From Enterobacterales bacterium (lineage in GTDB: Bacteria > Pseudomonadota > Gammaproteobacteria > Enterobacterales > GCA-2746155): a DNA stretch of 64,000 nt. Positions 13,498 to 64,000 of the stretch are shown here, piece by piece (position 1 is the first letter of the stretch; every line of letters begins with the position of its first letter). The position numbers and the translations under genes were made by a program. The stretch is from positions 2,998,536 to 3,062,535 of the forward strand of contig OZ252282.1 in assembly GCA_965250035.1 (NCBI GenBank), written 5' to 3'. The notes beneath the pieces are model-generated. The model had not been told where the DNA came from. It worked only from the letters and a program-made list of their open reading frames with translations, and did no database searches.

Positions 13498-13512
13498 CTA
13501 TCGCCAGTAATA

Positions 13513-13875: not shown

Positions 13876-14005
13876 GATAATTCCTTTTGTTATTTTTTAA
13901 AATAGTAGCACAGATGCTTGTTCATTTTACGAATGATCAATGGTGTAATATGATCATCACATAAATCCCCCCGTTCATCTTACTACAGGTACAGAGTACG
14001 TTGAT

Positions 14006-14479: not shown

Positions 14480-14515
14480 ATTAACGTTTTCATCCGATAG
14501 AAATGAGGTCTGACC

Positions 14516-15199: not shown

Positions 15200-15213
15200 T
15201 CGGCGCCCAATTA

Positions 15214-16080: not shown

Positions 16081-16083
16081 GTT

Positions 16084-16512: not shown

Positions 16513-16576
16513 CGCCAATCGCAAGTGAATTATGCTAATGTAAGCGCATTATTCTGATGACAAAGACGCATTCGAT

Positions 16577-18341: not shown

Positions 18342-18415
18342 TACGGCATTTATTTGCCTTTAGCTGTTAATCACAGTAAATTGTTTCGCAACAATACTAA
18401 TTACAGTCGTTATCT

Positions 18416-20569: not shown

Positions 20570-20574
20570 GATAG

Positions 20575-20883
20575 ATGTCAGGCAGCTATCCCGACAGAAT
20601 AAAAAGACTTCCGCTGTATGATGGTCGATTCGATGCTTACAAACTCGCTGCAGAAGGTGCTGAGGTCCTGTTTGCCTCTTACCCGGCGGGTACGGTCATT
20701 CCAGTACATAGTCACGATACCGATAATCATGGCGTGATTACTAAAGGTGAATTGTTGCTGACCATGCATGGTGAAACGACACGCATCGGAGTGGGCCAGT
20801 GGTATCATGTACCGGCACATGTTGAGCATGCCGCGCGATTTGATGTCGAAACAGATGAGATAGAATTCTGGTTCCAATCATAA
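20575..20883 (+). CDS. Cupin domain protein
   Basis: 102 aa with HSHDTDNHGVITKGE...VPAHVEHAA cupin motifs. Confidence 0.75.
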   Translation: MSGSYPDRIKRLPLYDGRFDAYKLAAEGAEVLFASYPAGTVIPVHSHDTDNHGVITKGELLLTMHGETTRIGVGQWYHVPAHVEHAARFDVETDEIEFWFQS

Positions 20884-20924
20884 ACCAATACACACGTATT
20901 AATTAACAACGACAAGGAGACATC

Positions 20925-21356
20925 ATGACTCCCGAGATAGCCATTCTGGCACCCGTCGTGGTGTTAGTCTTCTGGTCCATGATTATGTGGTTATGGATGT
21001 ACGCTACCCGAATACCCGCCATCATGAAGGCGAAGATTCACCCCGATCCAAAAATCCCTCGGGGTGAACAGTTGAAACTACTGCCCTATAAGGTGCGCTG
21101 GAAGGCTGATAACTATAACCATCTGATGGAACAGCCAACCGTATTTTACGCGGTGGCGATCGCATTAGCCGTGATGGCAGAGGGCAGCGGTATTAACCTT
21201 TACCTCGCCTGGGCCTATGTCATCCTGCGCATCATTCATAGTATTTTTCAGAGCCTCGTTAACCATATCGGTTACCGTTTTATGTTATTTGTATTATCGA
21301 ATATTCCATTGCTCTGGTTAACGATCAATGCAATGCTCCATGTGTTTCAGGTGTAA
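20925..21356 (+). CDS. MAPEG family membrane protein
   Basis: 143 aa with 4 TM helices. A NHLMEQPTVFY-type motif is present. Confidence 0.65.
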   Translation: MTPEIAILAPVVVLVFWSMIMWLWMYATRIPAIMKAKIHPDPKIPRGEQLKLLPYKVRWKADNYNHLMEQPTVFYAVAIALAVMAEGSGINLYLAWAYVILRIIHSIFQSLVNHIGYRFMLFVLSNIPLLWLTINAMLHVFQV

Positions 21357-21411
21357 TGATTCGAATCCATTGAAGACCAGGCGGCTCATCATCTAACGGA
21401 ACAGAAATGAC

Positions 21412-21858
21412 ATGAGACATCGCGGCTATACCATTACCACTGATCCTTCACAATTTGACTATGATGTCATCCATGCGTTTTTGAATAATAGCTACTGGTC
21501 GCCGGGCATCCCATTGCATACCCTTAAAAAGGCGATCGAGAATTCGCTTAGCTTTGCAGTGCTGAATGCTGATGACGAGACGGTTGGATTCGCACGCATG
21601 ATCACGGATAGGGCGACCTTTGCCTACCTGGCTGACGTGTTCATCATTGAGTCAATGCGTGGCCAGGGATTGAGTAAATGGCTAATGCAAACAATCCAGG
21701 ACCATCCCGATCTTCAGGGTTTGCGTCGGATGGTTTTGATCACACGCGATGCGCATGGCTTGTATGAACAGTATGGCTTCGGCCCGATTGCGCATCCTGA
21801 GCGGATGATGGAAATTGTCAGGCCAGATATTTACCTGTCTAAGGAACCGGAATTATGA
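21412..21858 (+). CDS. GNAT family N-acetyltransferase
   Basis: 148 aa with an MRGQGLSKWLM motif. Confidence 0.8.
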   Translation: MRHRGYTITTDPSQFDYDVIHAFLNNSYWSPGIPLHTLKKAIENSLSFAVLNADDETVGFARMITDRATFAYLADVFIIESMRGQGLSKWLMQTIQDHPDLQGLRRMVLITRDAHGLYEQYGFGPIAHPERMMEIVRPDIYLSKEPEL

Positions 21859-49967: not shown

Positions 49968-50978
49968 ATGAAGACTGGAATCCTAATCGTTAATCTAGGC
50001 ACACCTGATTCACCTGAGGTGAAAGACGTGCGTATCTTTCTGCGAGAGTTTCTCTCTGATCCGCTCGTGGTTGATCTGCCTGACATCCCGCGCTGGATTC
50101 TCGTGAATCTGATCATCGCACCATTTCGTGCGCCTGGCTCCAGTGAAGAGTACAAGCGACTCTGGACTGACAAGGGCTCGCCGCTGAAATACCATACTGA
50201 GGAATTGCTTGCCCAGCTACAAGACTATTTCGAAGACGACACGATCGTGGAAATGGCGATGCGTTATCGTAATCCCTCAATTGCCGATCGACTCCAGCAC
50301 TTACGCGCCGAGGGTATCGAGCAATTGACCGTGGTGCCATTGTTTCCACAGTATGCCGAGGCAACCAACCTGTCGGTGATTCAGGAGGTTAAGGATCAAC
50401 TGGCAAGGATTGATTGGCGTGTCGATGTCAGTTTTGTGGATAGTTTTCCGGTACAACCGGATTTCATCAAGGCAATCATTAGCGCCGCAAACTTACCAGA
50501 GACAGACTTTGACCATACCTTATTCAGTTTCCATAGCCTGCCTGAGAGGCAACTCAAACGGCTCTATGATACCTGCATCACAGAGAATTGTTGCGCGACC
50601 TGGGGTGAGCACAACAAAGACTGCTATCGTGCCCAGTGCTTCGCGACCGCGCGTGCTATCGCTGAGAGTCTGAATCTCGATGAGTCTGACTACACGGTAT
50701 GCTTCCAGTCGCGGGCGGGTAATATTCCCTGGGTGCAGCCCTATACCGATGAGGTAATTGATGCGCTCAACGCCCGGGGTGTGAAATCGCTTTGTGTCTT
50801 TTCTCCGGCCTTCGTGGCTGATTGTCTCGAAACCGATGTTGAGATCGGCCATACCTATCGCGATCAGTTCATTGATGGCGGCGGCGAGACCTTCTACGTC
50901 GCTCCCTGTGTGAATAGCCATCCAGAGTGGGTGGCTGCCTTGGCTGAGATTATCAAGGATCATCTCAAGGCGGCTTAA
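49968..50978 (+). CDS. hemH: Ferrochelatase
   Basis: MKTGILIVNLGTPDSP is a canonical N-terminus. An alternative upstream ATG lies at 49947. The catalytic-region motif FSFHSLP is present. Confidence 0.9.
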   Translation: MKTGILIVNLGTPDSPEVKDVRIFLREFLSDPLVVDLPDIPRWILVNLIIAPFRAPGSSEEYKRLWTDKGSPLKYHTEELLAQLQDYFEDDTIVEMAMRYRNPSIADRLQHLRAEGIEQLTVVPLFPQYAEATNLSVIQEVKDQLARIDWRVDVSFVDSFPVQPDFIKAIISAANLPETDFDHTLFSFHSLPERQLKRLYDTCITENCCATWGEHNKDCYRAQCFATARAIAESLNLDESDYTVCFQSRAGNIPWVQPYTDEVIDALNARGVKSLCVFSPAFVADCLETDVEIGHTYRDQFIDGGGETFYVAPCVNSHPEWVAALAEIIKDHLKAA

Positions 50979-51080
50979 CGAGACCCGCTCGACAAAATAC
51001 ATGCTGATAGCGGGCTGACCCTGTTCATTTCTTCAGTCTATTGCCATACTAGGTCTATGCAGTAAATAGTGTGATTACAG

Positions 51081-53120
51081 ATGTCATCAGTTCATGACAA
51101 TATAACCATCGTCGTCCCTAACGCACTGGAGTTGTTAAACACGCCAGTCTGGATCTGGGACATGGAAGCAGAAAACATCATCTGGGGCAATCCATCCTGC
51201 CTGGAGCTATGGGGTGCCGACACCGTCCAGCAACTACAACAGATGGATTTCACCAATCAGCCATTGCTGACACAATTTCAAGAAATGTCTAAACGGTTTC
51301 GTGCCGGACTCAGTGTCGAAGAAGAGCAGATTTTCAGTATCCGGGGCACACCCACAACGGTAACCTGTCAATGTCAGGGCATTGATATCGATGGCTATGA
51401 ACTAACCGCCCTGGTTGAAGTGCGACAGGTAGCCAGGAGCCCGCAGGATGCGAACGTTCAGTCCAGTATTGAAGCGCTACAGCACACGCCGGCAATGGTT
51501 TCCATATTCACGATGGACGGCGTCTGTCTGATGCGTAATCCGGCGGCAATGCGCAGCTTTGGCTTCCTCAATCCGAACGACAAGGAAACCATCTTTGACC
51601 GTATCTGCGATGCTTCGGTAGCGCAGGAATTGCGCGATAGTATGACGCGCGGCACATCGTTTTCCGCCGAGATCATGACCCAGACCAAACAGGGTGAACG
51701 TTGGCATCATTTCGATGCTCGAATCATCCTTAATCAAAATAACAGCCAGGTCATTCTGGTCAATGAGCTGGATGTCCACAAGCGTAAGATGGCGTCCGAT
51801 CAGGCGTATCGTCTCGCCTATTATGACCCCCTGACGGAATTACCCAATCGTGTGGCATTTGCTAATCGTGTCGAGGATATATTACTTGGTTTGAGTCACA
51901 AGCAGGATGAGAGTGCATTAGTCATCTACCTCAACATCAACAATTTCAGCGATGTTAACAGTACCTTTGGCTTTGCAGCGGGGGATAAGCTGCTTCAGGA
52001 TGTTGGGCAGCGACTCACCGAGAGTTTGCCGGACGCTGAAATCGTCTCTCGCGTGGGTGCGGATAAATATGCCGTGGTCTATCAGCTGTCCAGCGATGCC
52101 AACCAGATCCAAGAATTTGTGAATCGCATCATTTCCCAGTTCGACAAGCCGTATCAGATCCTCGAGCATGCCTATCTGGTTGGGATCCGAATGGGTATTT
52201 CTCTGCTCCCGGAACATGCCCAGAGCGAAATGGAGGCGAGTCGGGTAACGGATATTGCGCTCAACCATGCCCGAGATAAGGGACGCAATGCCTGGGTATT
52301 GTATAACTCACGGATGTCGATTGTGACGTATGAGAAAACCCAACGTGTTCAACAGATCTATGAGGCGATGGCGAAAGGCCAATTCATGCTCTATTTCCAG
52401 CCGCAAATCGATCTGGCGACTGGGAAGATGATCGGTGCAGAAACCCTGATGCGCTGGCGCCAGGAGGATGGCAGTTTCGTATCACCCGCGGTCTTTATCC
52501 CCCTGGCTGAACAGATGGGTGTTATCAATGACATCAGCCGCTGGGTGATACGCGAGGCTTGTCGACTGAATCGCAGTTGGTCTGATAAGGGTTTTGATTC
52601 GTTTCGGGTGGCGGTGAATATCTCGGGCGCTGAATTCGATGATCCAGATTTCGTTGGGATGGTGAAAGATGCCCTCTTCAGTAGTGGTCTTGAGCCCCAT
52701 TTACTTGAGTTAGAGGTCACAGAGACGGCCCTGGTACATGACATTGATCAGGCGGTCGAGGTCCTCAATCGGATCAAGGAATTAGGCGTTGAGGTGGCGA
52801 TTGATGATTTCGGCACGGGTCACTCTTCGCTCAATTATTTGAAACGTTTTCCAATTGACCGGCTAAAAATCGATAAGTCTTTTGTGGACCAAATCAAGTC
52901 CGGTGGCAAACAGGATCTCGCCATCGTAAAGGCGATCCTCGATATGGCCTCAGCTTTTGAGATCAGTACAATCGCGGAGGGAATCGAGCATGCAGAACAG
53001 GCTAAAATTCTGCATGACATCGGTTGCCATGAAGGCCAGGGGTATCATTTTTCTAAACCCCTATCGGTCGCCGAGTTTGAAAATCTGATGATGTCCAAAC
53101 AGGAAGCGCCGCAAGTCTAA
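51081..53120 (+). CDS. PAS-GGDEF-EAL signalling protein (degenerate GGDEF, EAL-type phosphodiesterase)
   Basis: 679 aa. The GGDEF position reads GADKY. The EAL domain has ETLMR, DDFGTGHSS, EGIE and QGYHFSKP. Confidence 0.9.
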   Translation: MSSVHDNITIVVPNALELLNTPVWIWDMEAENIIWGNPSCLELWGADTVQQLQQMDFTNQPLLTQFQEMSKRFRAGLSVEEEQIFSIRGTPTTVTCQCQGIDIDGYELTALVEVRQVARSPQDANVQSSIEALQHTPAMVSIFTMDGVCLMRNPAAMRSFGFLNPNDKETIFDRICDASVAQELRDSMTRGTSFSAEIMTQTKQGERWHHFDARIILNQNNSQVILVNELDVHKRKMASDQAYRLAYYDPLTELPNRVAFANRVEDILLGLSHKQDESALVIYLNINNFSDVNSTFGFAAGDKLLQDVGQRLTESLPDAEIVSRVGADKYAVVYQLSSDANQIQEFVNRIISQFDKPYQILEHAYLVGIRMGISLLPEHAQSEMEASRVTDIALNHARDKGRNAWVLYNSRMSIVTYEKTQRVQQIYEAMAKGQFMLYFQPQIDLATGKMIGAETLMRWRQEDGSFVSPAVFIPLAEQMGVINDISRWVIREACRLNRSWSDKGFDSFRVAVNISGAEFDDPDFVGMVKDALFSSGLEPHLLELEVTETALVHDIDQAVEVLNRIKELGVEVAIDDFGTGHSSLNYLKRFPIDRLKIDKSFVDQIKSGGKQDLAIVKAILDMASAFEISTIAEGIEHAEQAKILHDIGCHEGQGYHFSKPLSVAEFENLMMSKQEAPQV

Positions 53121-53124
53121 TCCG

Positions 53125-54783
53125 CTAGTCGGCCGCGAACACCTGTTCTCCTGCCAAATAGGTTGCCAGCACCTTAATTTTCCAGATGTCTTGCTCGGGT
53201 ATTTCCATATAATCCCGATCCACCAGGATGAAGTCGGCCCACTTGCCGGCCTCGAGTGAACCGATGACCTTTTCCTGATGACCGGCGTATGCGGCGTCCA
53301 ATGTGAAGGAGCGCAATGCCTCTTCACGCGTCATCTTTTGATCCACTCGCCAGCCACCCATTGGCTTGTTGTTTCGATCCTGTCGGGTTACGCCGGCATG
53401 TAAGCCATAAAAGGGATTCGATGGTTCGACTGGGAAGTCAGAGCCATTGGCGATGCGGGATCCTTGTTGTAAAAATTTACGCCAGGCATAGGCACCCGCG
53501 AGACGCTTCTCACCCACCCGTGCCTTGGCCATATTCATGTCCGATGTCGCATGGGTTGTCTGCATGGAAGGGATGACATCAAGCTCCTTGAAGCGCGGGA
53601 TGTCCTTCAGGTGGACGATCTGTGCATGTTCGACTCGATTGCGCAGGTTTCGGTATTGCGGATATTTAGCAAAGATATCTAAGAGTAGTCGATTACCCTT
53701 ATCCCCGATGGCGTGGGTATTCACCTGAAAGCCGTTCTCCATGGCGAACTTAGTCATCGCCTCGGTGTTTTCCGGTGTATGCAACAGTAGGCCAGTACTC
53801 TCTGGACGATCGGAATAGGGCTCATCCAGTGCCGCACCACGGCTACCCAATGCACCGTCAATCTGGATTTTTATGCTGCGAATCGAGAGTTTGTCGTCAT
53901 ACAAGGAAGGCTCAGGGCCATTTTTTATGACGTCTTCGTAGCCATCAGAAGTGACCGATAGCATGCCATAGACCCGGACATCGAGTGCATCGGCTTCGCC
54001 GATCTTTTTGAACGCGACGATTTCCTCTGGTGATATGCCTGCGTCATGGACCGAGGTGATACCCTCGGAGGCCAGTTTTGCAAAGGCGGTTTCAATGTAA
54101 TCGATGATTTGTTGTTCTGAAATTTCAGGGATGGCGCGGCTGACAATATCCATGGCGTTATCAATCAACACGCCCGTCGGATTGCCGTTTTCATCCTTCA
54201 GGATTTCACCACCCTGAGGATCCAAGGTATTGCGATCGATGCCTGCGCGCCGCAGGGCTTCTGAATTGGCCCAGGCAGCATGGCCATCGACGCGATTCAA
54301 GAAGACGGGCTTCCCGGGGACCGCATTGTCGAGGGTCTCGGCATTAGGGAATTCGTTCTTGTCCCATAACACCTGATTCCAGCCACGGCCGAGGATCCAT
54401 TCCTGGGTGTTATTCTTGCGCGCGAATTCTGCCACGAGCTGCGCCGCATGCTCGGCTGATTTACTCTTAGTCAGGTCGACATTTTGTAACGACTGACCAT
54501 AGCTCATGATGTGACCATGGGCATCGATTAGACCGGGTAGCAGATAGTTTCCCTGGCCATCAATCAGAGTACGTTTCTTTTTCGTCTGTAATAGTTTCTC
54601 AACGGAGGGCTTATCCAGGGTTTGTACTACCTTGCCCTGATCATCATAGAGTAGTCCATGAAAGGTCAATAAGCCATCCTCGGTAATGGTATAGCCTTTG
54701 ATATTATGAACCAGGGTTTCTGCGAGTGCAGGGGCACTGATAATAAGAACCAATAGACTGATAATTGTGCGATGTAGATTCAT
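53125..54783 (-). CDS. Secreted metal-dependent amidohydrolase (YtcJ-like, amidohydrolase_3)
   Basis: 552 aa with signal peptide MNLHRTIISLLVLIISAPALA and the GLIDAHGH metal motif. Its start is 14 nt downstream of the kinase gene. Confidence 0.85.
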   Translation of the reverse strand: MNLHRTIISLLVLIISAPALAETLVHNIKGYTITEDGLLTFHGLLYDDQGKVVQTLDKPSVEKLLQTKKKRTLIDGQGNYLLPGLIDAHGHIMSYGQSLQNVDLTKSKSAEHAAQLVAEFARKNNTQEWILGRGWNQVLWDKNEFPNAETLDNAVPGKPVFLNRVDGHAAWANSEALRRAGIDRNTLDPQGGEILKDENGNPTGVLIDNAMDIVSRAIPEISEQQIIDYIETAFAKLASEGITSVHDAGISPEEIVAFKKIGEADALDVRVYGMLSVTSDGYEDVIKNGPEPSLYDDKLSIRSIKIQIDGALGSRGAALDEPYSDRPESTGLLLHTPENTEAMTKFAMENGFQVNTHAIGDKGNRLLLDIFAKYPQYRNLRNRVEHAQIVHLKDIPRFKELDVIPSMQTTHATSDMNMAKARVGEKRLAGAYAWRKFLQQGSRIANGSDFPVEPSNPFYGLHAGVTRQDRNNKPMGGWRVDQKMTREEALRSFTLDAAYAGHQEKVIGSLEAGKWADFILVDRDYMEIPEQDIWKIKVLATYLAGEQVFAAD

Positions 54784-54797
54784 ATTCTCTCCGGATA

Positions 54798-55658
54798 TTA
54801 GACGTTTGCGAGCAGCTCTGACAGGCGCTCTTGTTGAGATTCAGTGACTTGTTCGACTTCTTTCTGGACTGCCAACTCCCAAAGCAGGGCGACATATTCA
54901 TAGACCCACAACCAGTCTTTAAATGCCCGTTCATGAGATGACCAGTATTCACCGAAATAACTCTTCAAGACATTCTTTTGTTGCTGTTGCGTCAGCGCAT
55001 TGCCTTTACACAGGGCGGCAAGTTCAAATAACGGTGAGTTAACGCCGGAAAATTCCCAGTCGAAAAAGTGAATTGACTCGTTGATGAGGATATTGCTTGC
55101 TAGCAGATCATTGTGACAGAGACAATTATCATATTGCTCGGCTGACGACTCGATGATGCCCCTTGCCTTGGAGAGCAGTTCCCCACGCAACAACTCAGGG
55201 GCGACAGAATCCTGATCGATTTTGGCGCGGTAATTGTTAATGCTGTTGAGTAAATCCTGCTCGGGCAAATCGTCCACCGGCAGGGAGTGGATCTGTTTAA
55301 TACGCTCCATCAGTCGCTTGACACGATTCATATCATCGAAATCTTCTTCGCTCCAGTAATCGCCTTCGATCCAGCGCGCTATTGAGAATTGCTCATCCAG
55401 ATCGAAGTAGATAATGACGGGTGCCACCTGGAGCGGCTCCAGGTGCGACATGATACGCATCTCCTTTTTATGGTCGATGCCGAGGTCGATGGCCTCATGG
55501 TTAAAGAATTTTATGACGTATTCATCTTTACTGAATTTAAGATGATAGCTCTCGTTGGTAATGCCCTGGGTGAGATGCTTATAGGATATAAGCATGCGAC
55601 TGCTCAGTTCAGGTACCATTTCCAGGTAACGTTTAAGATTTGAAATCGAGCGTGTCAC
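54798..55658 (-). CDS. APH/choline-kinase-fold phosphotransferase, candidate thiamine kinase
   Basis: 286 aa with Brenner-like motif LCHNDLLASNIL and FFDWEF. Its position in a TPP-riboswitch operon supports the call. An alternative start at 55619 would remove the overlap with the PnuC-like gene. Confidence 0.7.
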   Translation of the reverse strand: MTRSISNLKRYLEMVPELSSRMLISYKHLTQGITNESYHLKFSKDEYVIKFFNHEAIDLGIDHKKEMRIMSHLEPLQVAPVIIYFDLDEQFSIARWIEGDYWSEEDFDDMNRVKRLMERIKQIHSLPVDDLPEQDLLNSINNYRAKIDQDSVAPELLRGELLSKARGIIESSAEQYDNCLCHNDLLASNILINESIHFFDWEFSGVNSPLFELAALCKGNALTQQQQKNVLKSYFGEYWSSHERAFKDWLWVYEYVALLWELAVQKEVEQVTESQQERLSELLANV

Positions 55659-56247
55659 GATACTGTTTCTTCCATACTAAATACCCTGAAATGCTAAGGA
55701 CAATGTACAACCCGAATAACAGGGCTGTCAGGATTAGGTCCTTATTCAGATAAAGGTAAATTGAAATACTATTGATCACGATCCAGTAAAGCCAGTTCTC
55801 TAAAACCTTACGCGTGACCATCCAGGTGGTTAATACTGCACTCCAAGTCGTGAAAGAGTCAAGCCAAGGATAACTGGCATTGGTATTTTGTAGCAGGGTG
55901 GCTGACAGGGCTGTGAGGGCCAGGATTAGCAATAATGCCATCAGATGCTGTCTTAGATTCCAGCGACTGATGGCTAGTTCATGCCCCTGATCGTCCTTTC
56001 GGGTCCATGCATACCAGCCATAGATCGCCATCCCCATGTAGTAAACCTGCAGGAGCGACTCCATGAACAGGGTGACCTCGAAAAACAGCCAGGTGTAGAT
56101 GGCAGTACTGAGCAGGGCCGCTGGCCAGCACAGGATATTCTGTTTCATTGCGAATAACAGATAAGCAATGGCCAGGATGACGGCTACGAGTTCCCATATC
56201 CTGGCCGCGGTCCAGCCCTCGGCTAGCCACTGGAGGATTTCAGTCAT
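55633..56247 (-). CDS. pnuC: PnuC-family vitamin transporter, probably of thiamine (PnuT) type
   Basis: 204 aa with 7 TM helices. Trp-rich motifs (WLYWIVINS) are typical of PnuC. It is under TPP riboswitch control. Confidence 0.8.
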   Translation of the reverse strand: MTEILQWLAEGWTAARIWELVAVILAIAYLLFAMKQNILCWPAALLSTAIYTWLFFEVTLFMESLLQVYYMGMAIYGWYAWTRKDDQGHELAISRWNLRQHLMALLLILALTALSATLLQNTNASYPWLDSFTTWSAVLTTWMVTRKVLENWLYWIVINSISIYLYLNKDLILTALLFGLYIVLSISGYLVWKKQYRDTLDFKS

Positions 56248-56248
56248 G

Positions 56249-56500
56249 CTATTTGGGGGCTAGGTTACCGTTGATAAACTTGCACACAAACACGGCTTTA
56301 CCCTGCTCCTGCCAGGATGAAGTCATGGCTTGTTCGAGCAGCGGGAATACGACGCTGGAATCACCGAATAATTGGGTGCTCATGGTATTGGTAATAGCCG
56401 TTACCCCATCCGTTTGATTGATTTTGGCGATGAAGGCTTTGATTGGTGCGATGTATTCTTCCGCAAGCGGATAGCAACTGAGTTCGACTGATATATTCAT
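56249..56500 (-). CDS. Small YkoF/MTH1187-like (thiamine-binding-type) protein
   Basis: 83 aa. MNISVELSCYPL... has the pattern of the ferredoxin-like UPF0045/YkoF fold. The call rests on recall and operon context. Confidence 0.55.
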   Translation of the reverse strand: MNISVELSCYPLAEEYIAPIKAFIAKINQTDGVTAITNTMSTQLFGDSSVVFPLLEQAMTSSWQEQGKAVFVCKFINGNLAPK

Positions 56501-56518
56501 AATGTATCCTGATTGATG

Positions 56519-58591
56519 TTAATAACGGTATCTTACCGTAAATCCTACATGCCTTGGATCGCCAAGGCGTTCATACAGCTTGACCGGGAAATCGGGTGGC
56601 TCATTGGCAAAGTAGAAGCCACGCACGGTGGTGCGTTCATTGGTCAGATTCTGGGCCCACAGATAATAACTCCAGGATGCCTCCTGATAGCCAAACTTCA
56701 GATTCACGGTATGACTGGAATCGGCGATCTGATCGTGGCTGAAAGAATAGTAAAAGTCATCTTTCATTTGCGCCTGTATACGGCCGAACCAGCCGTCATC
56801 GTCGGCATAGTTAAGCGCAAACGATAACATGGTGTTGGGGGCATGGGCCTGCTCACGTCCCTGCAGGCGCTGTTCAGCACCCTGAAATTCCTCGATTTTC
56901 GTGCTCAGATAACCCACGGTCATATCATAAGACCAGTTGTCATTGAGTTGATAACTCAGTTCGGCCTCGAGTCCCCGGTTATAGCCTTCGGCGGCGTTAT
57001 CGATGAGGAAGATAAAGGTCAGCGGATCGGTTGGATCCAACTGTTGCGACGTACTGATCTGAACTTCATCCCGCTGCATGTTGAAAATCGATGCGGACCA
57101 GCGTAGCGCGCCATCGGCGGATCGGCCACGCAGCCCGGCTTCCATATTCAGCACGTATTCCGGATCGAATTGACGCAATTCATCCGGGATCGACAGGCTT
57201 AGGTTAAAGCCCCCCGCCTTGTAACCACGGGCGATAGAATACCAGGATGTTAAGGTATCCGAGTGCTGCTTTATCAGGCTGATTTCACCACCATTCATGG
57301 TATCGGTCGGATTGAAATCGACCGGAGAGGTATCTCGATAGTCTGCCTCACGCCGTTCACGACGCAGGCTGACCGAGACGGTCGTATCTTCTGCCAATGC
57401 CCAGCGTAGTTGACCATAGATGGCCAGGGTATCGGCGGAATATTGTGAACTTAGGCTGCGGAAAATGGCACCGTTATATAGGTCAGTGATGTCATTATCT
57501 TCCTCCAGCGATTGTTGATAAAGACCCACAACCCAGTCAGTCGCACGTCGATCAGAGATCGGTTTGGACAGCAGTCGGACCTCATTGGTACTTGTGTTTC
57601 GACGCCGATCGGTGTCCGAGGTGAAATCATAGGGGCCGTTGACTCCCCATAGGTCAGGATTACCCCAGTCGCCATCGAATGCAACCCGGTTATCGATATC
57701 GGCATAGGTGCTGATGATTAGCCAGTCCAGCTGCTCTCCGGTCACCTCCCAGCGAGCGGCCATGGCAGTGGTCTTTTGTGAGTCCTCGCCGGGTTTATCG
57801 GTGGTTGTTATGTAGCTGTTATCCAGTGCCCAGAGATCATACCCATTGTCGAGTTCTGACTCGATAAGGGTCAGTTTAATTTCATGATTCTCGGCGGGTA
57901 ACAGGCGCAGTTTGGCGCGCATGTTAAATTCATCACGTTCGTTGGTATCATCGCGATTAAGGTACACGTTATCGCGGAAGCCATTGTTGACATACTGGTC
58001 GACGCTGATGAGACCGAGCACACTGTCATCCTCGGACAGGCTTCCCGAAGCCGACACTGACACACCATAGGTGTCATGATCGGCAATCATGAACTGACTA
58101 TTCAGTTCCGTTTCTGCCAGCGGATCTCGGCTCTGTACCCGGATCATTCCGGCGATCGCATTGGCACCATAGCGAGCACTTTGTGGGCCCCTGAGTACCT
58201 CGACCTGGCTAATATCGAATAGGCTGGCTAGCATACCCATGCTACTAAAATCGATATCATCGATAATCATCGCGACGGATGGATTGGGGGCGCCCTCATA
58301 CTGGTCTAACTCACCAATTCCGCGGATCTGAAAAAATTTCGGCCGCGAGCTACCGCCGGCCCAATTGAGGTTGGGTAGCAGGTTGATGACCTCCTCGAAG
58401 TGCTGCTCGGCAGCCTGTTGCAGCGCTTCTTCACTCATCACGCTGATACTCGAAGTGGTATTTTGTAAGTCGCTGTCACGATAATCTGCCGTGACGGTGA
58501 TCCGGTTGTCTGATTCCGACGACTCGTCAGCGATCAGTGAATAGTTGAGGGCTGCGGCAATCAGCAGCGATATATAGCGGACTGGTTTCAT
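56519..58591 (-). CDS. TonB-dependent outer-membrane receptor
   Basis: 690 aa with a signal peptide and a plug domain (VEVLRGPQSARYGANAIAGMI). The C-terminus is ...GFTVRYRY. Confidence 0.9.
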   Translation of the reverse strand: MKPVRYISLLIAAALNYSLIADESSESDNRITVTADYRDSDLQNTTSSISVMSEEALQQAAEQHFEEVINLLPNLNWAGGSSRPKFFQIRGIGELDQYEGAPNPSVAMIIDDIDFSSMGMLASLFDISQVEVLRGPQSARYGANAIAGMIRVQSRDPLAETELNSQFMIADHDTYGVSVSASGSLSEDDSVLGLISVDQYVNNGFRDNVYLNRDDTNERDEFNMRAKLRLLPAENHEIKLTLIESELDNGYDLWALDNSYITTTDKPGEDSQKTTAMAARWEVTGEQLDWLIISTYADIDNRVAFDGDWGNPDLWGVNGPYDFTSDTDRRRNTSTNEVRLLSKPISDRRATDWVVGLYQQSLEEDNDITDLYNGAIFRSLSSQYSADTLAIYGQLRWALAEDTTVSVSLRRERREADYRDTSPVDFNPTDTMNGGEISLIKQHSDTLTSWYSIARGYKAGGFNLSLSIPDELRQFDPEYVLNMEAGLRGRSADGALRWSASIFNMQRDEVQISTSQQLDPTDPLTFIFLIDNAAEGYNRGLEAELSYQLNDNWSYDMTVGYLSTKIEEFQGAEQRLQGREQAHAPNTMLSFALNYADDDGWFGRIQAQMKDDFYYSFSHDQIADSSHTVNLKFGYQEASWSYYLWAQNLTNERTTVRGFYFANEPPDFPVKLYERLGDPRHVGFTVRYRY

Positions 58592-58633
58592 AATGGTTCC
58601 AATAACAGAAAATTAATAAGCACTTGTTTGGAA

Positions 58634-58728
58634 CCGACGGATGGTCATACCTTTCCCTACGCCAGTATAATCTGGATCAGGTTCCAGGGTTCGCAGTGCG
58701 TCTCAGGTCAAATGACCACCCCTAAGGT
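58634..58728 (-). promoter_or_regulatory. TPP (THI-box) riboswitch
   Basis: The minus strand reads GGGGTGGTCATTTGACCTGAGACGCACTGCGAACCCTGGAACCTGATCCAGATTATACTGGCGTAGGGAAAGGTATGACCA. It has the conserved CUGAGA and ACCUGAUCnnGnUAAUnCnnGCGUAGGGAA cores and a P1 stem TGGTCAT/ATGACCA. Confidence 0.9.
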
Positions 58729-58808
58729 GATGCAGAGTATAACCGATCCCTTTATCTATTTGCCATATCTACAACGTATGGTATTTTGGGATTAATAAAA
58801 TAAGAAGA

Positions 58809-60455
58809 GTGACTATGGATAAGATTACCCCAATTGAAGCTTTTGTGAATCACACTCAGGCGACCCCTGATAAAGTGTTTATGCACCAACCCTATGAGAA
58901 TGAGGTCGTCGAACTGACCTATGCCGAGGCCATGCAGCATGTGCTGCGGCTCAGTCACTGGTTCAAACGCTACCCACCGCATAGTCATATTGGCATACTG
59001 TCGCTCAATTGCATGCATTGGATCCTGACGGATTTGGCCATCATGATGGCAGGCCATGTAAGCATTCCGATCTATCCCACCTCTTCATCTGCCAGTATCA
59101 ATCAGATCCTAGAACATAGTGAATGCCGTTGTCTGTTTATTGGTAAGATGCCTCCTGAGAAAGAGGGGCTGGGCGTGGTTGATACATCCCTGGATATTGT
59201 GAGCATGTATAGCCATCGTGAACAGTATCTGGACTGGGATCAGCTGGCTGTCGGCGAGGAACACGATACCCATATTGTGTATCCACCGTTCTCTGATCTG
59301 GCGAGTATTATCTATACCTCAGGCACCACGGGTATGCCGAAAGGCGTGATGGTAACCTACGAATCACTGTTCTCGGCCGGTGAGATCATCATCGACTGGG
59401 TCAAGGTCAAAGACACCGATCGCTTCATTTCCTATCTGCCACTGGCCCATGTGGCTGAGCGGGCAGCGGTCGAGATGGCCAGTGTCTATGCCGGTGCCGA
59501 AATCTTTTTCGTTCACTCACTGGATACCTTCAATGAAGATATGGTGAGGGCTAAACCGACAATCTTCTTTGGTGTTCCCAGGATCTGGATTAAATTACAA
59601 CAAGGTATCGAGGCCAAGATTCGTCCTGCTGTGTTGAACGTTATTCTCGGAATTCCATGGCTTGGTAACAGGTTTGCGAACACCTTACGCGAGAAACTGG
59701 GACTCGATCAGGTCAAGATCGCCTTATCAGCCGCCGCTGCATTGCCAGTGGACATTATCCACTGGTTTGACAAGATCGGGATACCCATTTGCGAGGCCTA
59801 TGGCATGTCTGAATCCATGGGAGCGGCGACATTTAACCACCCTGATTTCCGTCGCATTGGTAGCGTGGGGAAGGCGCTTCCGGGAACCGAACTGACAATT
59901 ATGGAGAATGATGAGGTGGCGTATCGTTCTACCTGCCTGATGGCGGGGTATTACAAGGAGCCGTCCCTCACCAGTCAGGCGATCAGGGATGGTTGGTTAT
60001 ATACCGGGGATACCGGTCGCATCGATGAGGATGGTTATTTATGGATAACCGGTCGACTTAAAGACATATTTAAGACACAAAAAGGAAAGTACATCGCGCC
60101 GTTGCCCATTGAGTCAGAATTATTGCCTCGTGCCGGTATGGAACAATTGTGCCTTATTGGCTCGAACCTGACTCAGCCGGTCGTTGTGGCACCGGTAATA
60201 GATAAGCCAGAGGGCGATGCCCTGAGAGCATTCGAGGCCAAATTAGAGCAGGTGCTCGATGAGATCAATACACACTTACCGGCCCACGAGCAGATTTCAC
60301 ATTGGTTCCTAGTCAATGAGGAATGGTCCCCGGAAAACAACTTGATCACACCGACGCTAAAGCTACGCCGGCAACCGATTGAGTCGCGTTACGAGGCTCA
60401 GATCCGTAAGGCCGTAACCGATGACAAGGTGATTCAGTGGTTAACGACCGACTAA
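58809..60455 (+). CDS. AMP-dependent acyl-CoA synthetase/ligase (long-chain fatty-acid-CoA ligase-like)
   Basis: 548 aa with AMP-binding motif IIYTSGTTGMPKGV and YTGDTGRIDEDGYLWITGRLKD. Confidence 0.9.
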   Translation: MTMDKITPIEAFVNHTQATPDKVFMHQPYENEVVELTYAEAMQHVLRLSHWFKRYPPHSHIGILSLNCMHWILTDLAIMMAGHVSIPIYPTSSSASINQILEHSECRCLFIGKMPPEKEGLGVVDTSLDIVSMYSHREQYLDWDQLAVGEEHDTHIVYPPFSDLASIIYTSGTTGMPKGVMVTYESLFSAGEIIIDWVKVKDTDRFISYLPLAHVAERAAVEMASVYAGAEIFFVHSLDTFNEDMVRAKPTIFFGVPRIWIKLQQGIEAKIRPAVLNVILGIPWLGNRFANTLREKLGLDQVKIALSAAAALPVDIIHWFDKIGIPICEAYGMSESMGAATFNHPDFRRIGSVGKALPGTELTIMENDEVAYRSTCLMAGYYKEPSLTSQAIRDGWLYTGDTGRIDEDGYLWITGRLKDIFKTQKGKYIAPLPIESELLPRAGMEQLCLIGSNLTQPVVVAPVIDKPEGDALRAFEAKLEQVLDEINTHLPAHEQISHWFLVNEEWSPENNLITPTLKLRRQPIESRYEAQIRKAVTDDKVIQWLTTD

Positions 60456-62149
60456 TTTTCCTTGATTGATATGATATAGTCGCCTCGCTCGAGTGCATCC
60501 ATGACATCCAGGCCTGACGTTACTCGGGCGAATATTGTGTAACGGCGATCCAAGTGCCAGTTTGGCTTGAGGTTGAAGAAGAACTGACTACCTCCGGTAT
60601 CCTTGCCGGCCGTTGCCATGCCAACGCTGCCCCGCTCATGACGGGCGAAGGATAACTCTTCTCTGATTGAATAGCCCGGGCCACCACTCCCAGTGCCTGT
60701 TGGGTCGCCTCCCTGGGCGACAAAGTTTGGAATAACCCGATGAAACAGTACCCCATCATAGTAGCCATCCATTGCCAGTTGATAGAAATTCAATGCGCTA
60801 TAGGGGGCGGCTGACAGTAGTTGTAAGGTGATGTCTCCACGACTGGTCTTCAGTGTCAGGGAGCGGCCGAAAACTGCCTGGGCCGCTACATACTTGGCGG
60901 TCTTTGAATCGGGTCGGCTGCCATCAGACGCCTGCTCATCCTGTAACGATTCAGCATAGTCTCGAATCGTCTCATGGTTCGATGACAGTGCACGCCGGAT
61001 GATGGCTTTGGCAGCGTCTGTGTCCATCTCGGCCACGACTTGTAATATCATACTCTCCCAGGTCGCCTGTGCGGGGCTTTTACTGTCGAACACTGCCAGC
61101 CAGCGATCCCTATAATTCTCAGATTGCGCCTGAAAAAGTAAACTCATGGCGCGATAGGTTACCCATTCTGAGGAGTCCTCACTCAGATGCTTGAGCCAGG
61201 CGATGGACTGGTCGGTCGGAGCAATGGTTGCCAGTCCCTGGATAAAGCCGATCTTTACCTGACTCGATGAATCCTTAACCACAGCCAGATAGGCTTTATT
61301 CTGAGTTTCCGATTGCGCGAGTCGGGCCGCGGCAGTGGCCGCCTGTGAGCGGACACCCGGATCGGTGGAGTGGGTTAATGAACGGATGACATAGTCGCCG
61401 AAGCTGGCATCCTGTTGTTCGGCCACGAGTGCCAGCAGCAGCTTATGATGATTCGGGGCGGTCACGGCCTGAATCGTTTTCTGTAAGTGTGCCTTATCAA
61501 ATAACGCTGTCTCGGTGCGGATCCGGGTCAGCGCATACAGGCAGTGATCGGCAAGCATCGCGCTGCCCTGGGCCATACTCAGTAGTTTGAATACCTGGGT
61601 AGAATTCGGCACTGAGATGCTATCCCGGTACATACTCCAGGCATAGTTCAGGGCATCGCAGGCAGCAGCCCGCACCGCGAGTGACTCATCATCTAGAAAT
61701 GGCAAAATAATGGCAATTTTGTCTTTATCCTCTGCCGCTTTGGGTAGCAGGCCTATGCCTGCCAATAATTCCGCTTTGACCTCAGTGTTTGATTCAGAAT
61801 CCAGGCGTTTTACCAGCCACTGATAGGCCGGTTCCGCACCACTGATAGCCAGTGCGTAGGCGGCATGTTTGCGGATCTCAGGCTGTGGTGAGTAGAGGCT
61901 GGACCCAATCAGCGTGACGGTATCCGGATCACCGATTCGACCCAATCCAATCAGTGCGGCTTTCTGTATTGCCAGATCATTCATGGCCAAGGCGCGCTGG
62001 AACAGTTGCTGGTCGGCATCGCGCCGATCGGTGGCTTCGTATAGTTGCGCCAGAAGGGATGATTGCTCATCCGGATTGGCGAATAGCGACGACTGGCTGG
62101 TGAGTGCCAGCAGAATAAGCGACAGAAACAGATTGGAATAGGTTTTCAT
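60452..62149 (-). CDS. Secreted HEAT-repeat protein fused to a C-terminal cyclophilin-type peptidyl-prolyl isomerase
   Basis: 565 aa with a signal peptide and ~390 aa of helical repeats. These are followed by FHRVIPNFVAQGGDPTGTGSGGPGY...GSQFFF. Confidence 0.85.
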   Translation of the reverse strand: MKTYSNLFLSLILLALTSQSSLFANPDEQSSLLAQLYEATDRRDADQQLFQRALAMNDLAIQKAALIGLGRIGDPDTVTLIGSSLYSPQPEIRKHAAYALAISGAEPAYQWLVKRLDSESNTEVKAELLAGIGLLPKAAEDKDKIAIILPFLDDESLAVRAAACDALNYAWSMYRDSISVPNSTQVFKLLSMAQGSAMLADHCLYALTRIRTETALFDKAHLQKTIQAVTAPNHHKLLLALVAEQQDASFGDYVIRSLTHSTDPGVRSQAATAAARLAQSETQNKAYLAVVKDSSSQVKIGFIQGLATIAPTDQSIAWLKHLSEDSSEWVTYRAMSLLFQAQSENYRDRWLAVFDSKSPAQATWESMILQVVAEMDTDAAKAIIRRALSSNHETIRDYAESLQDEQASDGSRPDSKTAKYVAAQAVFGRSLTLKTSRGDITLQLLSAAPYSALNFYQLAMDGYYDGVLFHRVIPNFVAQGGDPTGTGSGGPGYSIREELSFARHERGSVGMATAGKDTGGSQFFFNLKPNWHLDRRYTIFARVTSGLDVMDALERGDYIISIKEN

Positions 62150-62295
62150 AGAGTAATTATTTATCCGTATTGCAGGTTGTCATCATCTTGCCACATTTCG
62201 TCAGCCCATGGACATGGTTGCGCAGAATTTTTTCCCTACTCTCCTGCCATCATGCCGTCATGAGTCAACCGTTTTGAGAATGATGGAATGTAAAG

Positions 62296-64000
62296 ATGAT
62301 AATACGAATACGATTTAGACCCTTGCCAATGATCCTGCTGCTGGTGGGTTTGTTCCTGTTGCCGACTATAATTCAGGCGAGTCCAATCAAGCGGCTCAGT
62401 GAACTGACGAGCGGTAGCATGGTGGTTGAGCATGAACAGGGTGCTAACACCTTGCCACTGCTCGATACGCAGGTCAGGATGACCATCACCGGTATGAATG
62501 TTAAGACCGAGGTGAAGCAGTTTTTCGAAAATCCATCGCCCGATTATGTCAACGCCACCTACTATTTCCCACTTCCCGAGGATGCTGCAGTCAGTCGTTT
62601 GGAGATGCTGATTGGCGATCGCTTGATTGTGGGCAAAATCAAGGAGAAGCAAGAGGCTAAACGTATCTATAATGAGGCCGTGAAGGCGGGTAAGAAGGCG
62701 GCGTTGCTGGAGCAGGACAGGGCGAACCTGTTTCGTAATAAGGTGGCCAATATTGCGCCTGGGGAAACGATCGAAATAACACTGACCATGCATCATAAGG
62801 TACGTTATTCCCAGGGGACATTCTCGTTACGTTTCCCGACGACCATCACGCCACGCTATGAGGGGCGGCAGACTCTCACCGAACAATTCAAGCCTGACGA
62901 AGGCGCTTGGAGTCAGCAAGCGCACACCTCGACAGAGGCAGGGCCTGTTGTGGTTCACAGCACTAGCCGCAAGGACCAACAACTATCGATCGATGTGTCG
63001 CTCGACGCAGGCGTTGAGTTGGCCGCAATCCGATCGAACAGCCATTCGATCTCATCCCACAAGCGTAAACATAATCAATACGAGATCGGCTTGCAGAAAT
63101 ACCATGTGACCGATCGTGATTTCGAATTGAGCTGGACACCCAGGTCGGATAAGCAACCGCGCCTACTCAGTTTTACCCAGGCACATGAGAGCGATCCCGG
63201 TTATCTGTATACCCAGGTCGTCGTCCTGCCGCCGACTGATCAGGCGATTCGTAACCAGGCGATCGCGCGAGATGTGACCTTCATAATCGATCATTCCGGA
63301 TCGATGCAGGGCCAGTCGATGAGTCAGGCCAAGCTGGCATTGACACAGGCGATTAGTGACTTGTCTGCACAGGATCGTTTTAACGTCATTGGCTATAACC
63401 ACGAGGCGCATTCTCTGTTTCATGGCGCGGTTCCGGTCGATCAACAGTCGAAGCACTGGGCGTTGGATTACCTGCAGAAGATGGAAGCGAATGGGGGCAC
63501 GGAAATGGTCAAGGCCCTGACTCTGGCCCTGAATGAACCCACCTACCCCGACAGGGTGCGACAGATTATCTTTCTGACGGATGGTGCCGTGAGTTATGAG
63601 GACAAGCTGTTTGAAATGATCCACAGCCGATTAGGCGATGCCCGATTGTTCACCATCGGGATTGGCTCGGCGCCGAATAGTTACTTTATGCGCAAGGCCG
63701 CTGAATTTGGTCAGGGTACCTACACCTATATCAGCAATAGTGGTGATATCGCGACGAAGATGACTCAATTACTGGAGCAATTGCGCTATCCCGTCATGCA
63801 GGATGTGCAGATTGAATTTTCCGAGCCCGTTGAGCATTATCCATTGCAGGTTCCGGACCTGTATCTGGGAGAACCAATCCATTTAATCATTCGGCGTCCG
63901 GCTACCGATATCGAAATGCGGATTAGTGGTAAACGCGACACACTGGACTGGCGAGCTAACCTGACACTGGCGACGGATTTATCCAACAACGCGAGTGGCA
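62296..64000 (+). CDS. VIT + von Willebrand factor A domain protein (marine proteobacterial sortase-target type). The ORF is partial and continues beyond the window.
   Basis: My own translation from the ATG at 62296 stays open to 64000. It begins MIIRIRFRPLPMILLLVGLFLLPTIIQA (signal peptide). A VIT-like region (YYFPLPEDAAVSRLEM) follows. The VWA MIDAS motif is IIDHSGSM, followed by FLTDGAV and FTIGIGSAPN. The ORF is absent from the track because it has no stop codon in the window. Confidence 0.85.
   Translation, partial: MIIRIRFRPLPMILLLVGLFLLPTIIQASPIKRLSELTSGSMVVEHEQGANTLPLLDTQVRMTITGMNVKTEVKQFFENPSPDYVNATYYFPLPEDAAVSRLEMLIGDRLIVGKIKEKQEAKRIYNEAVKAGKKAALLEQDRANLFRNKVANIAPGETIEITLTMHHKVRYSQGTFSLRFPTTITPRYEGRQTLTEQFKPDEGAWSQQAHTSTEAGPVVVHSTSRKDQQLSIDVSLDAGVELAAIRSNSHSISSHKRKHNQYEIGLQKYHVTDRDFELSWTPRSDKQPRLLSFTQAHESDPGYLYTQVVVLPPTDQAIRNQAIARDVTFIIDHSGSMQGQSMSQAKLALTQAISDLSAQDRFNVIGYNHEAHSLFHGAVPVDQQSKHWALDYLQKMEANGGTEMVKALTLALNEPTYPDRVRQIIFLTDGAVSYEDKLFEMIHSRLGDARLFTIGIGSAPNSYFMRKAAEFGQGTYTYISNSGDIATKMTQLLEQLRYPVMQDVQIEFSEPVEHYPLQVPDLYLGEPIHLIIRRPATDIEMRISGKRDTLDWRANLTLATDLSNNASG

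What the first reader, a model, noticed from the sequence alone, without database searches (positions are those of the whole stretch)
62296..64000. Long VIT-VWA ORF (proteobacterial sortase-target type) hidden from the ORF track, with antisense shadow ORFs listed instead
Reading the + strand from the ATG at 62296, I get an uninterrupted ORF of more than 568 codons that runs off the window. It has a signal peptide and a VIT-like N-terminal region. Its VWA domain has an intact MIDAS motif (DHSGSM) plus the FLTDGAV and IGIGSAPN blocks. The track lists only two minus-strand ORFs here (62236..62796 and 63163..63624), and their sequences look like non-coding shadows. From memory, this architecture matches the family annotated as marine proteobacterial sortase target protein. 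That family is normally followed by a dedicated sortase and ends in an LPXTG-like signal. Sortase-dependent surface display in a Gram-negative organism is still poorly understood. The rest of the system should lie just beyond 64000.
Basis: partly seen in the sequence, partly recalled or inferred. Interest (0 to 1): 0.55.

Follow-up and report, generated by a model that had tools for sequence, protein, structure and literature searches.

The report
Gram-negative sortase target gene, truncated
The open frame at the window's end is a real gene for a known but barely studied protein family: a periplasmic VIT-VWA protein that a dedicated sortase, encoded just past the window edge, probably processes; the call is correct and fairly ordinary.

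Summary
The observation and the interpretation both hold. The + strand is open from ATG 62296 to base 64000 (568 codons). It encodes VIT and VWA domains with an intact MIDAS site. Even truncated, it scores above the curated cut-off of NCBIfam TIGR03788, "marine proteobacterial sortase target protein".

An identical public contig extends the window. On it the gene ends at extrapolated position 64335 (679 aa). The protein ends in YPMTAL, a transmembrane helix and a short tail. A class GN sortase gene (TIGR03784, above cut-off) overlaps its end by 14 nt.

The ORF was "hidden" only because the ORF lister drops frames that run off the sequence. The two antisense ORFs are shadows.

This locus differs from the canonical five-gene Pds system in three ways:
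- No pdsS, pdsR or pdsO lies within 72 kb. About a third of the other loci I could judge also lack an adjacent pdsS/pdsR.
- The sorting motif is a minority variant, YPxTAL rather than LPxTAT.
- The basic tail is weak.

A conserved direct-repeat element (TTGCCACAATT-like) lies upstream of these operons across the family. The window holds a single copy, at 62178-62198. It is probably the operator of a PdsR-type response regulator.

The function (probably tethering to periplasmic peptidoglycan) is inferred, not shown. This is a new member of a known kind, of modest interest.

The parts
62296..64000 (+). First 568 of 679 codons of the sortase-target gene (TIGR03788 family). By extrapolation from the identical contig L009 (window = L009 + 52295), the gene runs on to position 64335. 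The sorting motif YPMTAL falls at 64234-64251 and the TM helix at about 64255-64323. The class GN sortase gene lies at 64322-64897, overlapping the target by 14 nt, and fnr at 65015-65737.
62296..62382 (+). Predicted Sec signal peptide (residues 1-29, probable cleavage after IQA).
   Evidence: Sequence; hydropathy; helix 9-25 in the AF2 model. No dedicated predictor was run.
62461..62787 (+). VIT domain (residues 56-164).
   Evidence: Pfam PF08487, E 4.6e-36.
63271..63744 (+). VWA domain (residues 326-483). The MIDAS residues are D332, S334, S336 (63289-63303), T402 and D429.
   Evidence: Pfam VWA_3 and VWA. The MIDAS residues are invariant in 50 family members. The whole ectodomain matches ITIH1 by fold and PARP4/ITIH4 by sequence.
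62178..62198 (+). Direct-repeat element TGTCATCATC-TTGCCACATTT, about 100 nt upstream of the ATG. It is a candidate operator for an OmpR/PhoB-type (PdsR-like) response regulator.
   Evidence: It is the only match in the 64 kb window. TTGCCACA is the most enriched upstream 8-mer across 76 loci (34 loci against 0.7 expected). The motif is strand-specific and copies are spaced 10-11 nt apart.
62236..62796 (-). Antisense shadow ORF, not a gene.
   Evidence: No family hits. The frame is not conserved as open in relatives.
63163..63624 (-). Antisense shadow ORF, not a gene.
60452..62149 (-). Divergently transcribed gene for a secreted HEAT-repeat/cyclophilin PPIase protein. It is a conserved neighbour of the target-sortase pair in this sub-clade. 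A functional link is not shown.
   Evidence: Pfam HEAT_2 and Pro_isomerase. The same arrangement occurs in L010, L014, L015, L016 and the P0002 contig.

Best explanation
Shown: 62296-64000 is the 5' 84% of a gene for a "marine proteobacterial sortase target protein". The protein has a Sec signal peptide, an ITIH-like VIT-VWA ectodomain with an intact metal-ion site, a disordered linker, the sorting motif YPMTA, a C-terminal transmembrane helix and a short tail. Its dedicated class GN sortase gene overlaps its 3' end just outside the window. That sortase has an N-terminal membrane anchor and the invariant residues His111, Cys169 and Arg182.

Inferred mechanism: the precursor is exported and held in the inner membrane by its C-terminal helix. 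The sortase cleaves between Thr650 and Ala651 and forms a thioacyl intermediate. It then passes the protein to an amine. The most likely acceptor is the side-chain amine of meso-diaminopimelate in peptidoglycan or lipid II. The VWA protein would then be covalently tethered to the sacculus inside the periplasm, where its MIDAS site binds a partner.

Inferred regulation: a conserved direct-repeat element upstream (62178-62198) suggests control by a PdsR-type response regulator encoded elsewhere in the genome. By analogy with Shewanella, that would mean induction by cell-wall damage.
For: Identity:
- TIGR03788 scores 701.3 bits against 551.65, and TIGR03784 scores 193.9 against 158.25.
- The extension contig is identical to the window.
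- A sortase lies directly downstream in 79 of 79 related loci that have enough downstream sequence.

Sorting signal:
- P648, T650 and A651 are at least 90% conserved.
- The family consensus is [L/F/Y]-P-x-T-A-T followed by a TM helix.
- In the model the motif sits in a disordered linker just before helix 654-676.

Catalysis:
- H111, C169 and R182 are invariant in 81-83 sortases.

Nucleophile analogy:
- The closest characterised sortases are class D (best non-GN models; nearest PDB entry 2ln7).
- B. anthracis SrtC cleaves LPNTA between T and A and uses m-diaminopimelate (PMC3297441).

Regulation:
- In S. oneidensis and S. algae, PghKR/PdsSR induces the sortase operon on peptidoglycan damage (bioRxiv 10.1101/2023.05.05.539549; PMC11580497).
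Against: - No biochemical study of any class GN sortase was found, and reviews call its role unknown.
- Deleting SO2194-2196 gave no ampicillin phenotype in Shewanella.
- The tail after the TM helix is RGEDAYP. It has one basic residue and a net charge of -1, against a family median of +3, so retention for sorting may be weak.
- Position 1 of the motif is Y and position 6 is L, both minority states.
- No pdsS, pdsR or pdsO lies within 72 kb, so the proposed regulator has not been observed.
- The first half-site, TGTCAT, also resembles a Pho box (my own knowledge), and TTGCCA is 5 of 6 matches to a sigma-70 -35 hexamer.
Confidence: 0.62

Rival explanations
1. True cell-surface display: the sortase product ends up outside the outer membrane as an adhesin.
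For: VWA domains are common in adhesins and in sortase-assembled pilus tip proteins; fold hits include SpaC, PitA and the LapA vWFA domain.
Against: - No secretion or outer-membrane translocation genes lie in the locus.
- The sortase is anchored in the inner membrane by an N-terminal helix.
- The linker between the folded core and the motif is only about 25 residues.
- The organism has an outer membrane, shown by TonB-dependent receptor and ExbD genes.
Confidence: 0.1
2. The sortase joins the target to something other than peptidoglycan, or merely releases it by hydrolysis. The alternative acceptor could be another envelope protein (for example an OmpA-like or Lpp-like protein), a lipid, or another copy of the target.
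For: [quoted passage not shown]
- Class C sortases, which make protein-protein links, are among the weaker homologues.
- The nearest eukaryotic relatives (ITIH) are transferred to a glycan through their C-terminus (my own knowledge).
Against: - This locus has no pdsO.
- My single-query tblastn, a weak test, found an adjacent pdsO only in L002.
- Only one substrate gene accompanies each sortase.
- The closest characterised enzymes use m-DAP.
Confidence: 0.2
3. The pair is a decaying or inactive remnant in this lineage, which has lost its PdsSR/PdsO partners.
For: There are no pds regulatory or OmpA-like genes nearby. The motif is non-canonical and the basic tail is weak.
Against: - Both frames are intact.
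- The catalytic triad and MIDAS residues are intact.
- The pair and its layout are conserved in relatives down to 44% identity.
- The upstream operator-like repeat is retained.
- 17 of 50 informative loci likewise lack adjacent pdsS/pdsR.
Confidence: 0.04

Closest known systems
Marine proteobacterial sortase target protein (NCBIfam TIGR03788) with class GN sortase (TIGR03784), e.g. S. oneidensis SO2195/SO2196
   Same: Both curated models are passed above their cut-offs. The architecture matches: signal peptide, VIT, VWA, P-x-T-A motif, TM helix and tail. The sortase gene lies immediately downstream and overlaps the target.
   Different: - Identity to named members is only 41-49%.
- The motif is YPMTAL rather than LPQTAT.
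- The tail has a single basic residue.
- No pdsO, pdsR or pdsS lies nearby.
Proteobacterial dedicated sortase (Pds) five-gene system: pdsS-pdsR | pdsO-target-sortase (Shewanella; Aliiglaciecola locus L002)
   Same: The target-sortase core is the same. A TTGCCACA-type direct repeat lies upstream, as in loci that carry pdsR.
   Different: The two-component system and the OmpA-like PdsO are missing from the 72 kb around the gene. The neighbours are instead a divergent HEAT-cyclophilin gene upstream and fnr-selD-selU downstream.
Class D sortase SrtC of Bacillus anthracis with its LPNTA substrates BasH and BasI
   Same: It is the closest characterised sortase class by HMM and PDB sequence search. 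The motif has Ala after Thr. The wall of the host carries m-diaminopimelate.
   Different: The score is far below the class D cut-off (62 bits against 165). The host here is diderm and there is a single VIT-VWA substrate. No biochemistry exists for the GN class.
Eukaryotic VIT-VWA proteins (inter-alpha-trypsin inhibitor heavy chains, PARP4)
   Same: The whole ectodomain is homologous: PARP4 at E 1e-30 over residues 46-631 and ITIH1 by Foldseek at E 1e-34. The MIDAS site is conserved.
   Different: This protein is bacterial, with a sortase signal at the C-terminus. ITIH is instead ester-linked to chondroitin sulphate or hyaluronan (my own knowledge).

Membership tests
TIGR03788 marine proteobacterial sortase target protein | Score above the curated equivalog cut-off (551.65 bits) | tested here: met
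   592.4 bits for the 568 aa in the window; 701.3 bits for the full 679 aa.
TIGR03788 marine proteobacterial sortase target protein | VIT domain plus VWA domain with a MIDAS site | tested here: met
   Pfam VIT 4.6e-36 and VWA_3 6e-23. D332, S334, S336, T402 and D429 are invariant in the family.
TIGR03788 marine proteobacterial sortase target protein | C-terminal sortase recognition motif followed by a transmembrane helix | tested here: met
   YPMTA at residues 647-651, then helix 654-676. The core P-x-T-A matches the family: P in 106 of 117, T in 109, A in 113. Y at position 1 occurs in 29 of 117 and L at position 6 in 8 of 117.
TIGR03788 marine proteobacterial sortase target protein | Cluster of basic residues at the extreme C-terminus | tested here: inconclusive
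   The tail is RGEDAYP, with one Arg and a net charge of -1. The family median is +3, but 14 of 117 members also have a net charge of 0 or below.
TIGR03788 marine proteobacterial sortase target protein | Encoded next to a dedicated sortase | tested here: met
   The sortase gene overlaps the target's end by 14 nt on the identical contig. The same adjacency holds in 79 of 79 related loci.
TIGR03788 marine proteobacterial sortase target protein | Proteobacterial (diderm) host | tested here: inconclusive
   TonB-dependent receptor and ExbD genes, and spoT-rpoZ-gmk type core genes, are in the window. The nearest named homologues are gammaproteobacterial. The source genome carries no name in the collection.
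TIGR03784 class GN sortase | Score above the curated cut-off; His-Cys-Arg triad; N-terminal membrane anchor | tested here: met
   193.9 bits against 158.25. H111, C169 and R182 are invariant. A hydrophobic segment covers about residues 8-35.
Canonical five-gene Pds system (pdsS, pdsR, pdsO, target, sortase) | Adjacent PdsS histidine kinase (TIGR03785) and PdsR regulator (TIGR03787) | tested here: not met
   tblastn of L002 and L003 PdsS/PdsR against the window plus 8 kb (72,149 b) gave only a 26%-identity receiver-domain hit in a CHASE hybrid kinase. That kinase and the neighbouring regulator are a generic hybrid kinase and an FNR. The rest of the genome could not be searched.
Canonical five-gene Pds system (pdsS, pdsR, pdsO, target, sortase) | [quoted passage not shown] | tested here: not met
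   There is no tblastn hit in 72 kb. The gene upstream is a divergent HEAT-cyclophilin. No OmpA-family Pfam call appears on the parts of the window that were annotated.
Gram-positive LPXTG cell-wall sorting (class A sortase substrates) | Canonical LPXTG pentapeptide | tested here: not met
   The motif is YPMTA, with Tyr for Leu and Ala for Gly.
Class D sortase (NF033746 / NF058671) | Score above the curated cut-off | tested here: not met
   62.1 bits against 165, and 66.4 bits against 140. It is the nearest characterised class, but this sortase is not a member.
Any sortase system | Cleavage at the motif and transpeptidation to an acceptor | not testable with these tools
   This needs biochemistry or mass spectrometry. 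No published assay for the GN class was found.

The most novel reading that the evidence does not exclude
The TTGCCACAATT-type direct repeat is the operator of the PdsR/PghR cell-wall-damage regulator. It is kept upstream of target-sortase operons even in lineages, such as this one, where the two-component genes are not adjacent. If so, this operon is a stress-induced module that staples a metal-dependent VWA scaffold to periplasmic peptidoglycan. The motif could then be used to map the peptidoglycan-damage regulon across proteobacteria and to set up expression conditions for a first biochemical test of a Gram-negative sortase.
Probability: 0.4. Interest if true: 0.55.

Novelty: new member of a known kind. 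Interest (0 to 1): 0.3.

Why it matters
What sortases do in Gram-negative bacteria is still unknown. The only functional data are that the operon is strongly induced by peptidoglycan damage in Shewanella, and that deleting it gave no ampicillin phenotype. This instance alone does not answer that question.

The comparison does yield three usable facts:
- The target-sortase pair is the invariant core, present in 79 of 79 loci.
- The two-component genes are dispensable as neighbours; about a third of informative loci lack them.
- A conserved, strand-specific, helically phased repeat lies upstream, giving a concrete and testable handle on regulation.

Tried and rejected
- FNR control: fnr lies directly downstream of the sortase, but none of five intergenic regions has a match to TTGAT-N4-ATCAA with 2 or fewer mismatches. 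Rejected.
- Sigma-70 promoter and terminator scan around the operon: hits were no more frequent than in shuffles. Uninformative.
- HEAT-cyclophilin as a system component: it is conserved next to the pair in the sub-clade down to 44% identity. It is absent from every other locus. This looks like lineage synteny; a functional link is unproven.
- Naming the organism: exact look-ups of 11 proteins returned no names, and the window has no tRNA genes.
- Literature search for a published PghR/PdsR binding site, or for the motif string: nothing relevant turned up, only primers.
- Antisense ORFs as real genes: rejected.
- pdsO detection across loci used a single tblastn query. It is a weak test, so I draw no frequency from it.

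Full report
OBSERVATION. Translating the + strand from the ATG at 62296 to base 64000 gives 568 codons with no stop. The N-terminus, MIIRIRFRPLPMILLLVGLFLLPTIIQA|SP, has the layout of a Sec signal peptide. The ORF lister shows only the minus-strand ORFs 62236..62796 and 63163..63624 in this stretch. That is because, by its own description, it omits ORFs that run off an end of the source. The "hiding" is a tool rule and has no biological meaning. The two antisense ORFs have no Pfam or NCBIfam match, and their frames are not kept open in relatives. They are shadows of the sense gene.

IDENTITY. Pfam finds VIT at residues 56-164 (E 4.6e-36) and VWA/VWA_3 at residues 326-483 (E 6e-23). NCBIfam TIGR03788, "marine proteobacterial sortase target protein" (an equivalog model), scores 592.4 bits on the truncated protein, against a curated cut-off of 551.65.

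EXTENDING THE WINDOW. I looked up the complete neighbouring gene (60452..62149, minus strand) in public assemblies. This returned a Logan contig (L001; the same contig as L009) that matches window 50452-64000 with 0 mismatches over 13,549 bases and continues 8,149 bases further. On it the gene is 679 codons long, ending at extrapolated window position 64335. The full protein scores 701.3 bits on TIGR03788.

The C-terminus reads ...KKIPNLAPDGSQAFNYPMTALNWQVQLLIGILLFVIGLWLNRGEDAYP*. Overlapping the last 14 nt is a 191-codon gene (extrapolated 64322-64897). It scores 193.9 bits on TIGR03784, "class GN sortase", against a cut-off of 158.25. It has an N-terminal hydrophobic anchor. His111, Cys169 and Arg182 are invariant across 81-83 family sortases.

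THE SORTING SIGNAL. Among the 120 best homologues, 117 have a recognisable signal. Its consensus is [L 50 / Y 29 / F 29]-P(106)-x-T(109)-A(113)-T(101), followed by a hydrophobic helix and a tail with a median net charge of +3. The window's YPMTAL keeps the P-x-T-A core. P648, T650 and A651 are at least 90% conserved in a 50-sequence alignment. Tyr at position 1 and Leu at position 6 (8 of 117) are minority states. The nearest relatives (P0002-P0007, 50-66% identity) read YPxT[A/G/S]L[N/D]W. The tail, RGEDAYP, has a single basic residue and a net charge of -1; 14 of 117 members are similarly non-basic.

An AlphaFold2 model (mean pLDDT 83, pTM 0.81) has a folded core over about residues 41-621. 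Residues 634-651, which contain the motif, form a disordered linker, and a terminal helix spans 654-676.

FOLD AND RELATIVES. By sequence the ectodomain is homologous to PARP4 (E 1e-30 over residues 46-631), ITIH4 and ITIH1. By structure the best match is ITIH1 (Foldseek E 1e-34, about 630 aligned columns). The MIDAS residues D332, S334, S336, T402 and D429 are invariant in the family.

LOCUS ARCHITECTURE. The literature describes a five-gene "proteobacterial dedicated sortase" system: pdsS, pdsR, pdsO, the target and the sortase (PMC11580497; bioRxiv 10.1101/2023.05.05.539549). I confirmed that layout in an Aliiglaciecola locus (L002), with TIGR03785, TIGR03787 and TIGR03789 all above their cut-offs. 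A Maricurvus locus (L003) has pdsS and pdsR.

In the window plus its 8-kb extension (72,149 bases), tblastn with those proteins finds none of the three. The neighbours are a divergent secreted HEAT-repeat/cyclophilin gene upstream, and fnr (NF008365, 313 bits against a cut-off of 228), selD, selU and a generic CHASE hybrid kinase downstream. The parts of the window I annotated (about 8.4-64 kb) are core chromosome: spoT, rpoZ, gmk, rph, pyrE, coaBC, radC, rpmBG, mutM and hemH. The first 8 kb or so I did not annotate.

The block HEAT-PPIase <-|-> target-sortase-fnr is conserved in relatives whose targets are 66%, 56%, 51%, 47% and 44% identical, even where other neighbours differ.

Across 92 loci from genomes and metagenomes:
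- The sortase lies directly downstream in 79 of 79 loci with at least 900 nt of downstream sequence.
- Of 50 loci with at least 4 kb upstream, 33 carry pdsR, 31 carry pdsS and 17 carry neither.

The two-gene form is therefore common, not peculiar to this window.

A CONSERVED UPSTREAM ELEMENT. Aligning the divergent intergenic regions of the sub-clade revealed shared blocks. Because I first defined the pattern after seeing it, I then ran an unbiased 8-mer enrichment. It covered 76 de-duplicated upstream regions (-260 to +10 of the estimated start), with the loci themselves as background. The top word is TTGCCACA, found in 34 loci against 0.7 expected (binomial p about 2e-48). It is followed by GCCACAAT, CCACAATT, TTTGCCAC and ATTTGCCA, which together spell tandem TTGCCACAATT repeats.

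Further properties of the sites:
- They are strand-specific: 47 of 76 regions on the gene's strand, against 5 of 76 on the other.
- Successive copies are spaced 10-11 nt apart (16 cases) or 21-22 nt apart (5 cases).
- Their median position is -137.
- They occur in 31 of 45 loci with an adjacent pdsR and in 16 of 31 without.

The window carries TGTCATCATC-TTGCCACATTT at 62178-62198. This is the only match in 64 kb to TTGCCACAWTT (0.19 expected) and to the two-half-site pattern (0.08 expected).

Helically phased direct repeats are typical of OmpR/PhoB-family regulators (established knowledge), and PdsR belongs to that family; its next-best models are CreB and PhoB. I infer that this is the PdsR operator, and that the window's operon is still controlled by such a regulator encoded elsewhere. 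This is unproven, for three reasons. The regulator was not observed. TTGCCA resembles a -35 hexamer. The window's first half-site also resembles a Pho box. I found no published binding site for PghR/PdsR.

MECHANISM. Steps shown by sequence are export signal, ectodomain, motif, membrane helix, and an adjacent intact membrane-anchored sortase. Steps inferred are cleavage between Thr650 and Ala651, and transfer to an amine.

The most likely acceptor is meso-diaminopimelate of peptidoglycan or lipid II. The nearest characterised sortases are class D. B. anthracis SrtC cleaves LPNTA between Thr and Ala and uses m-diaminopimelate (PMC3297441). Proteobacterial walls contain that residue (established knowledge). 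That 2ln7 is the B. anthracis enzyme rests on my memory.

The product would be a VWA protein stapled to the sacculus inside the periplasm, not displayed on the cell surface. Three points favour this: there is no outer-membrane export machinery in the locus, the sortase sits in the inner membrane, and the linker is only about 25 residues long.

In Shewanella the operon is induced more than 17-fold by ampicillin or by loss of PBP1a through PghKR. In S. algae it is induced 126- to 799-fold by a pdsS mutation. Deleting it did not change ampicillin resistance, and the authors state that the role of Gram-negative sortases remains unknown (also PMC8225981).

VERDICT. The finding is correct and well read. 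It is a divergent member of a curated family: 66% identity or less to any other sequence found, and 41-49% to named members. The family's existence has been known since the comparative analyses cited in PMC8225981, and the exact protein sequence is already in public collections, without a name. The departures from the textbook system are a YPxTAL motif, a weak basic tail and the lack of neighbouring pdsS, pdsR and pdsO. These are variations also seen elsewhere in the family. The conserved upstream repeat is the one result that may be new and useful. Interest is modest.

Noticed in passing
window 60452-62149 (-): A 565-aa secreted protein combines HEAT repeats with a C-terminal cyclophilin PPIase domain. 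It is transcribed divergently from the sortase target. It keeps this position in relatives down to 44% target identity (L010, L014, L015, L016, P0002 contig) and is absent from all other target-sortase loci. Whether it is a chaperone for the system or only a syntenic neighbour is open.
   Followed up: partly
L009 12720-15578 (extrapolated window 65015-67873): fnr (NF008365 above cut-off), selD and selU lie directly downstream of the sortase throughout the sub-clade. No FNR box was found upstream of the target gene.
   Followed up: partly
window 38692-41292 (-): An 866-aa protein carries all four PGM_PMM domains. From memory this looks longer than usual for phosphoglucomutase/phosphomannomutase enzymes, which would suggest an extra domain or a fusion.
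   Followed up: no
window ~12988-21858 (+): An unusual density of small GNAT acetyltransferase genes (at least five) is interspersed with glyoxalase, GST, SDR and methyltransferase genes. A 717-aa protein (18416-20569) in the same stretch has only faint TPR hits.
   Followed up: no
L003 5234-5872 (-): In Maricurvus an OmpA-like ORF, 28% identical to the Aliiglaciecola PdsO, lies beyond pdsS on the opposite strand instead of upstream of the target. PdsO placement evidently varies, and I did not test this ORF against TIGR03789.
   Followed up: no
L029, L032, L035, L038, L048, L059, L060, L073 and others, upstream of the target: Many metagenome loci share a longer, nearly identical upstream block, GCCACAATTTGCCACATTACGCCGGTGCATTGCCATG. 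It contains three phased half-sites. It may be the best-preserved form of the operator and a good probe for binding assays.
   Followed up: partly
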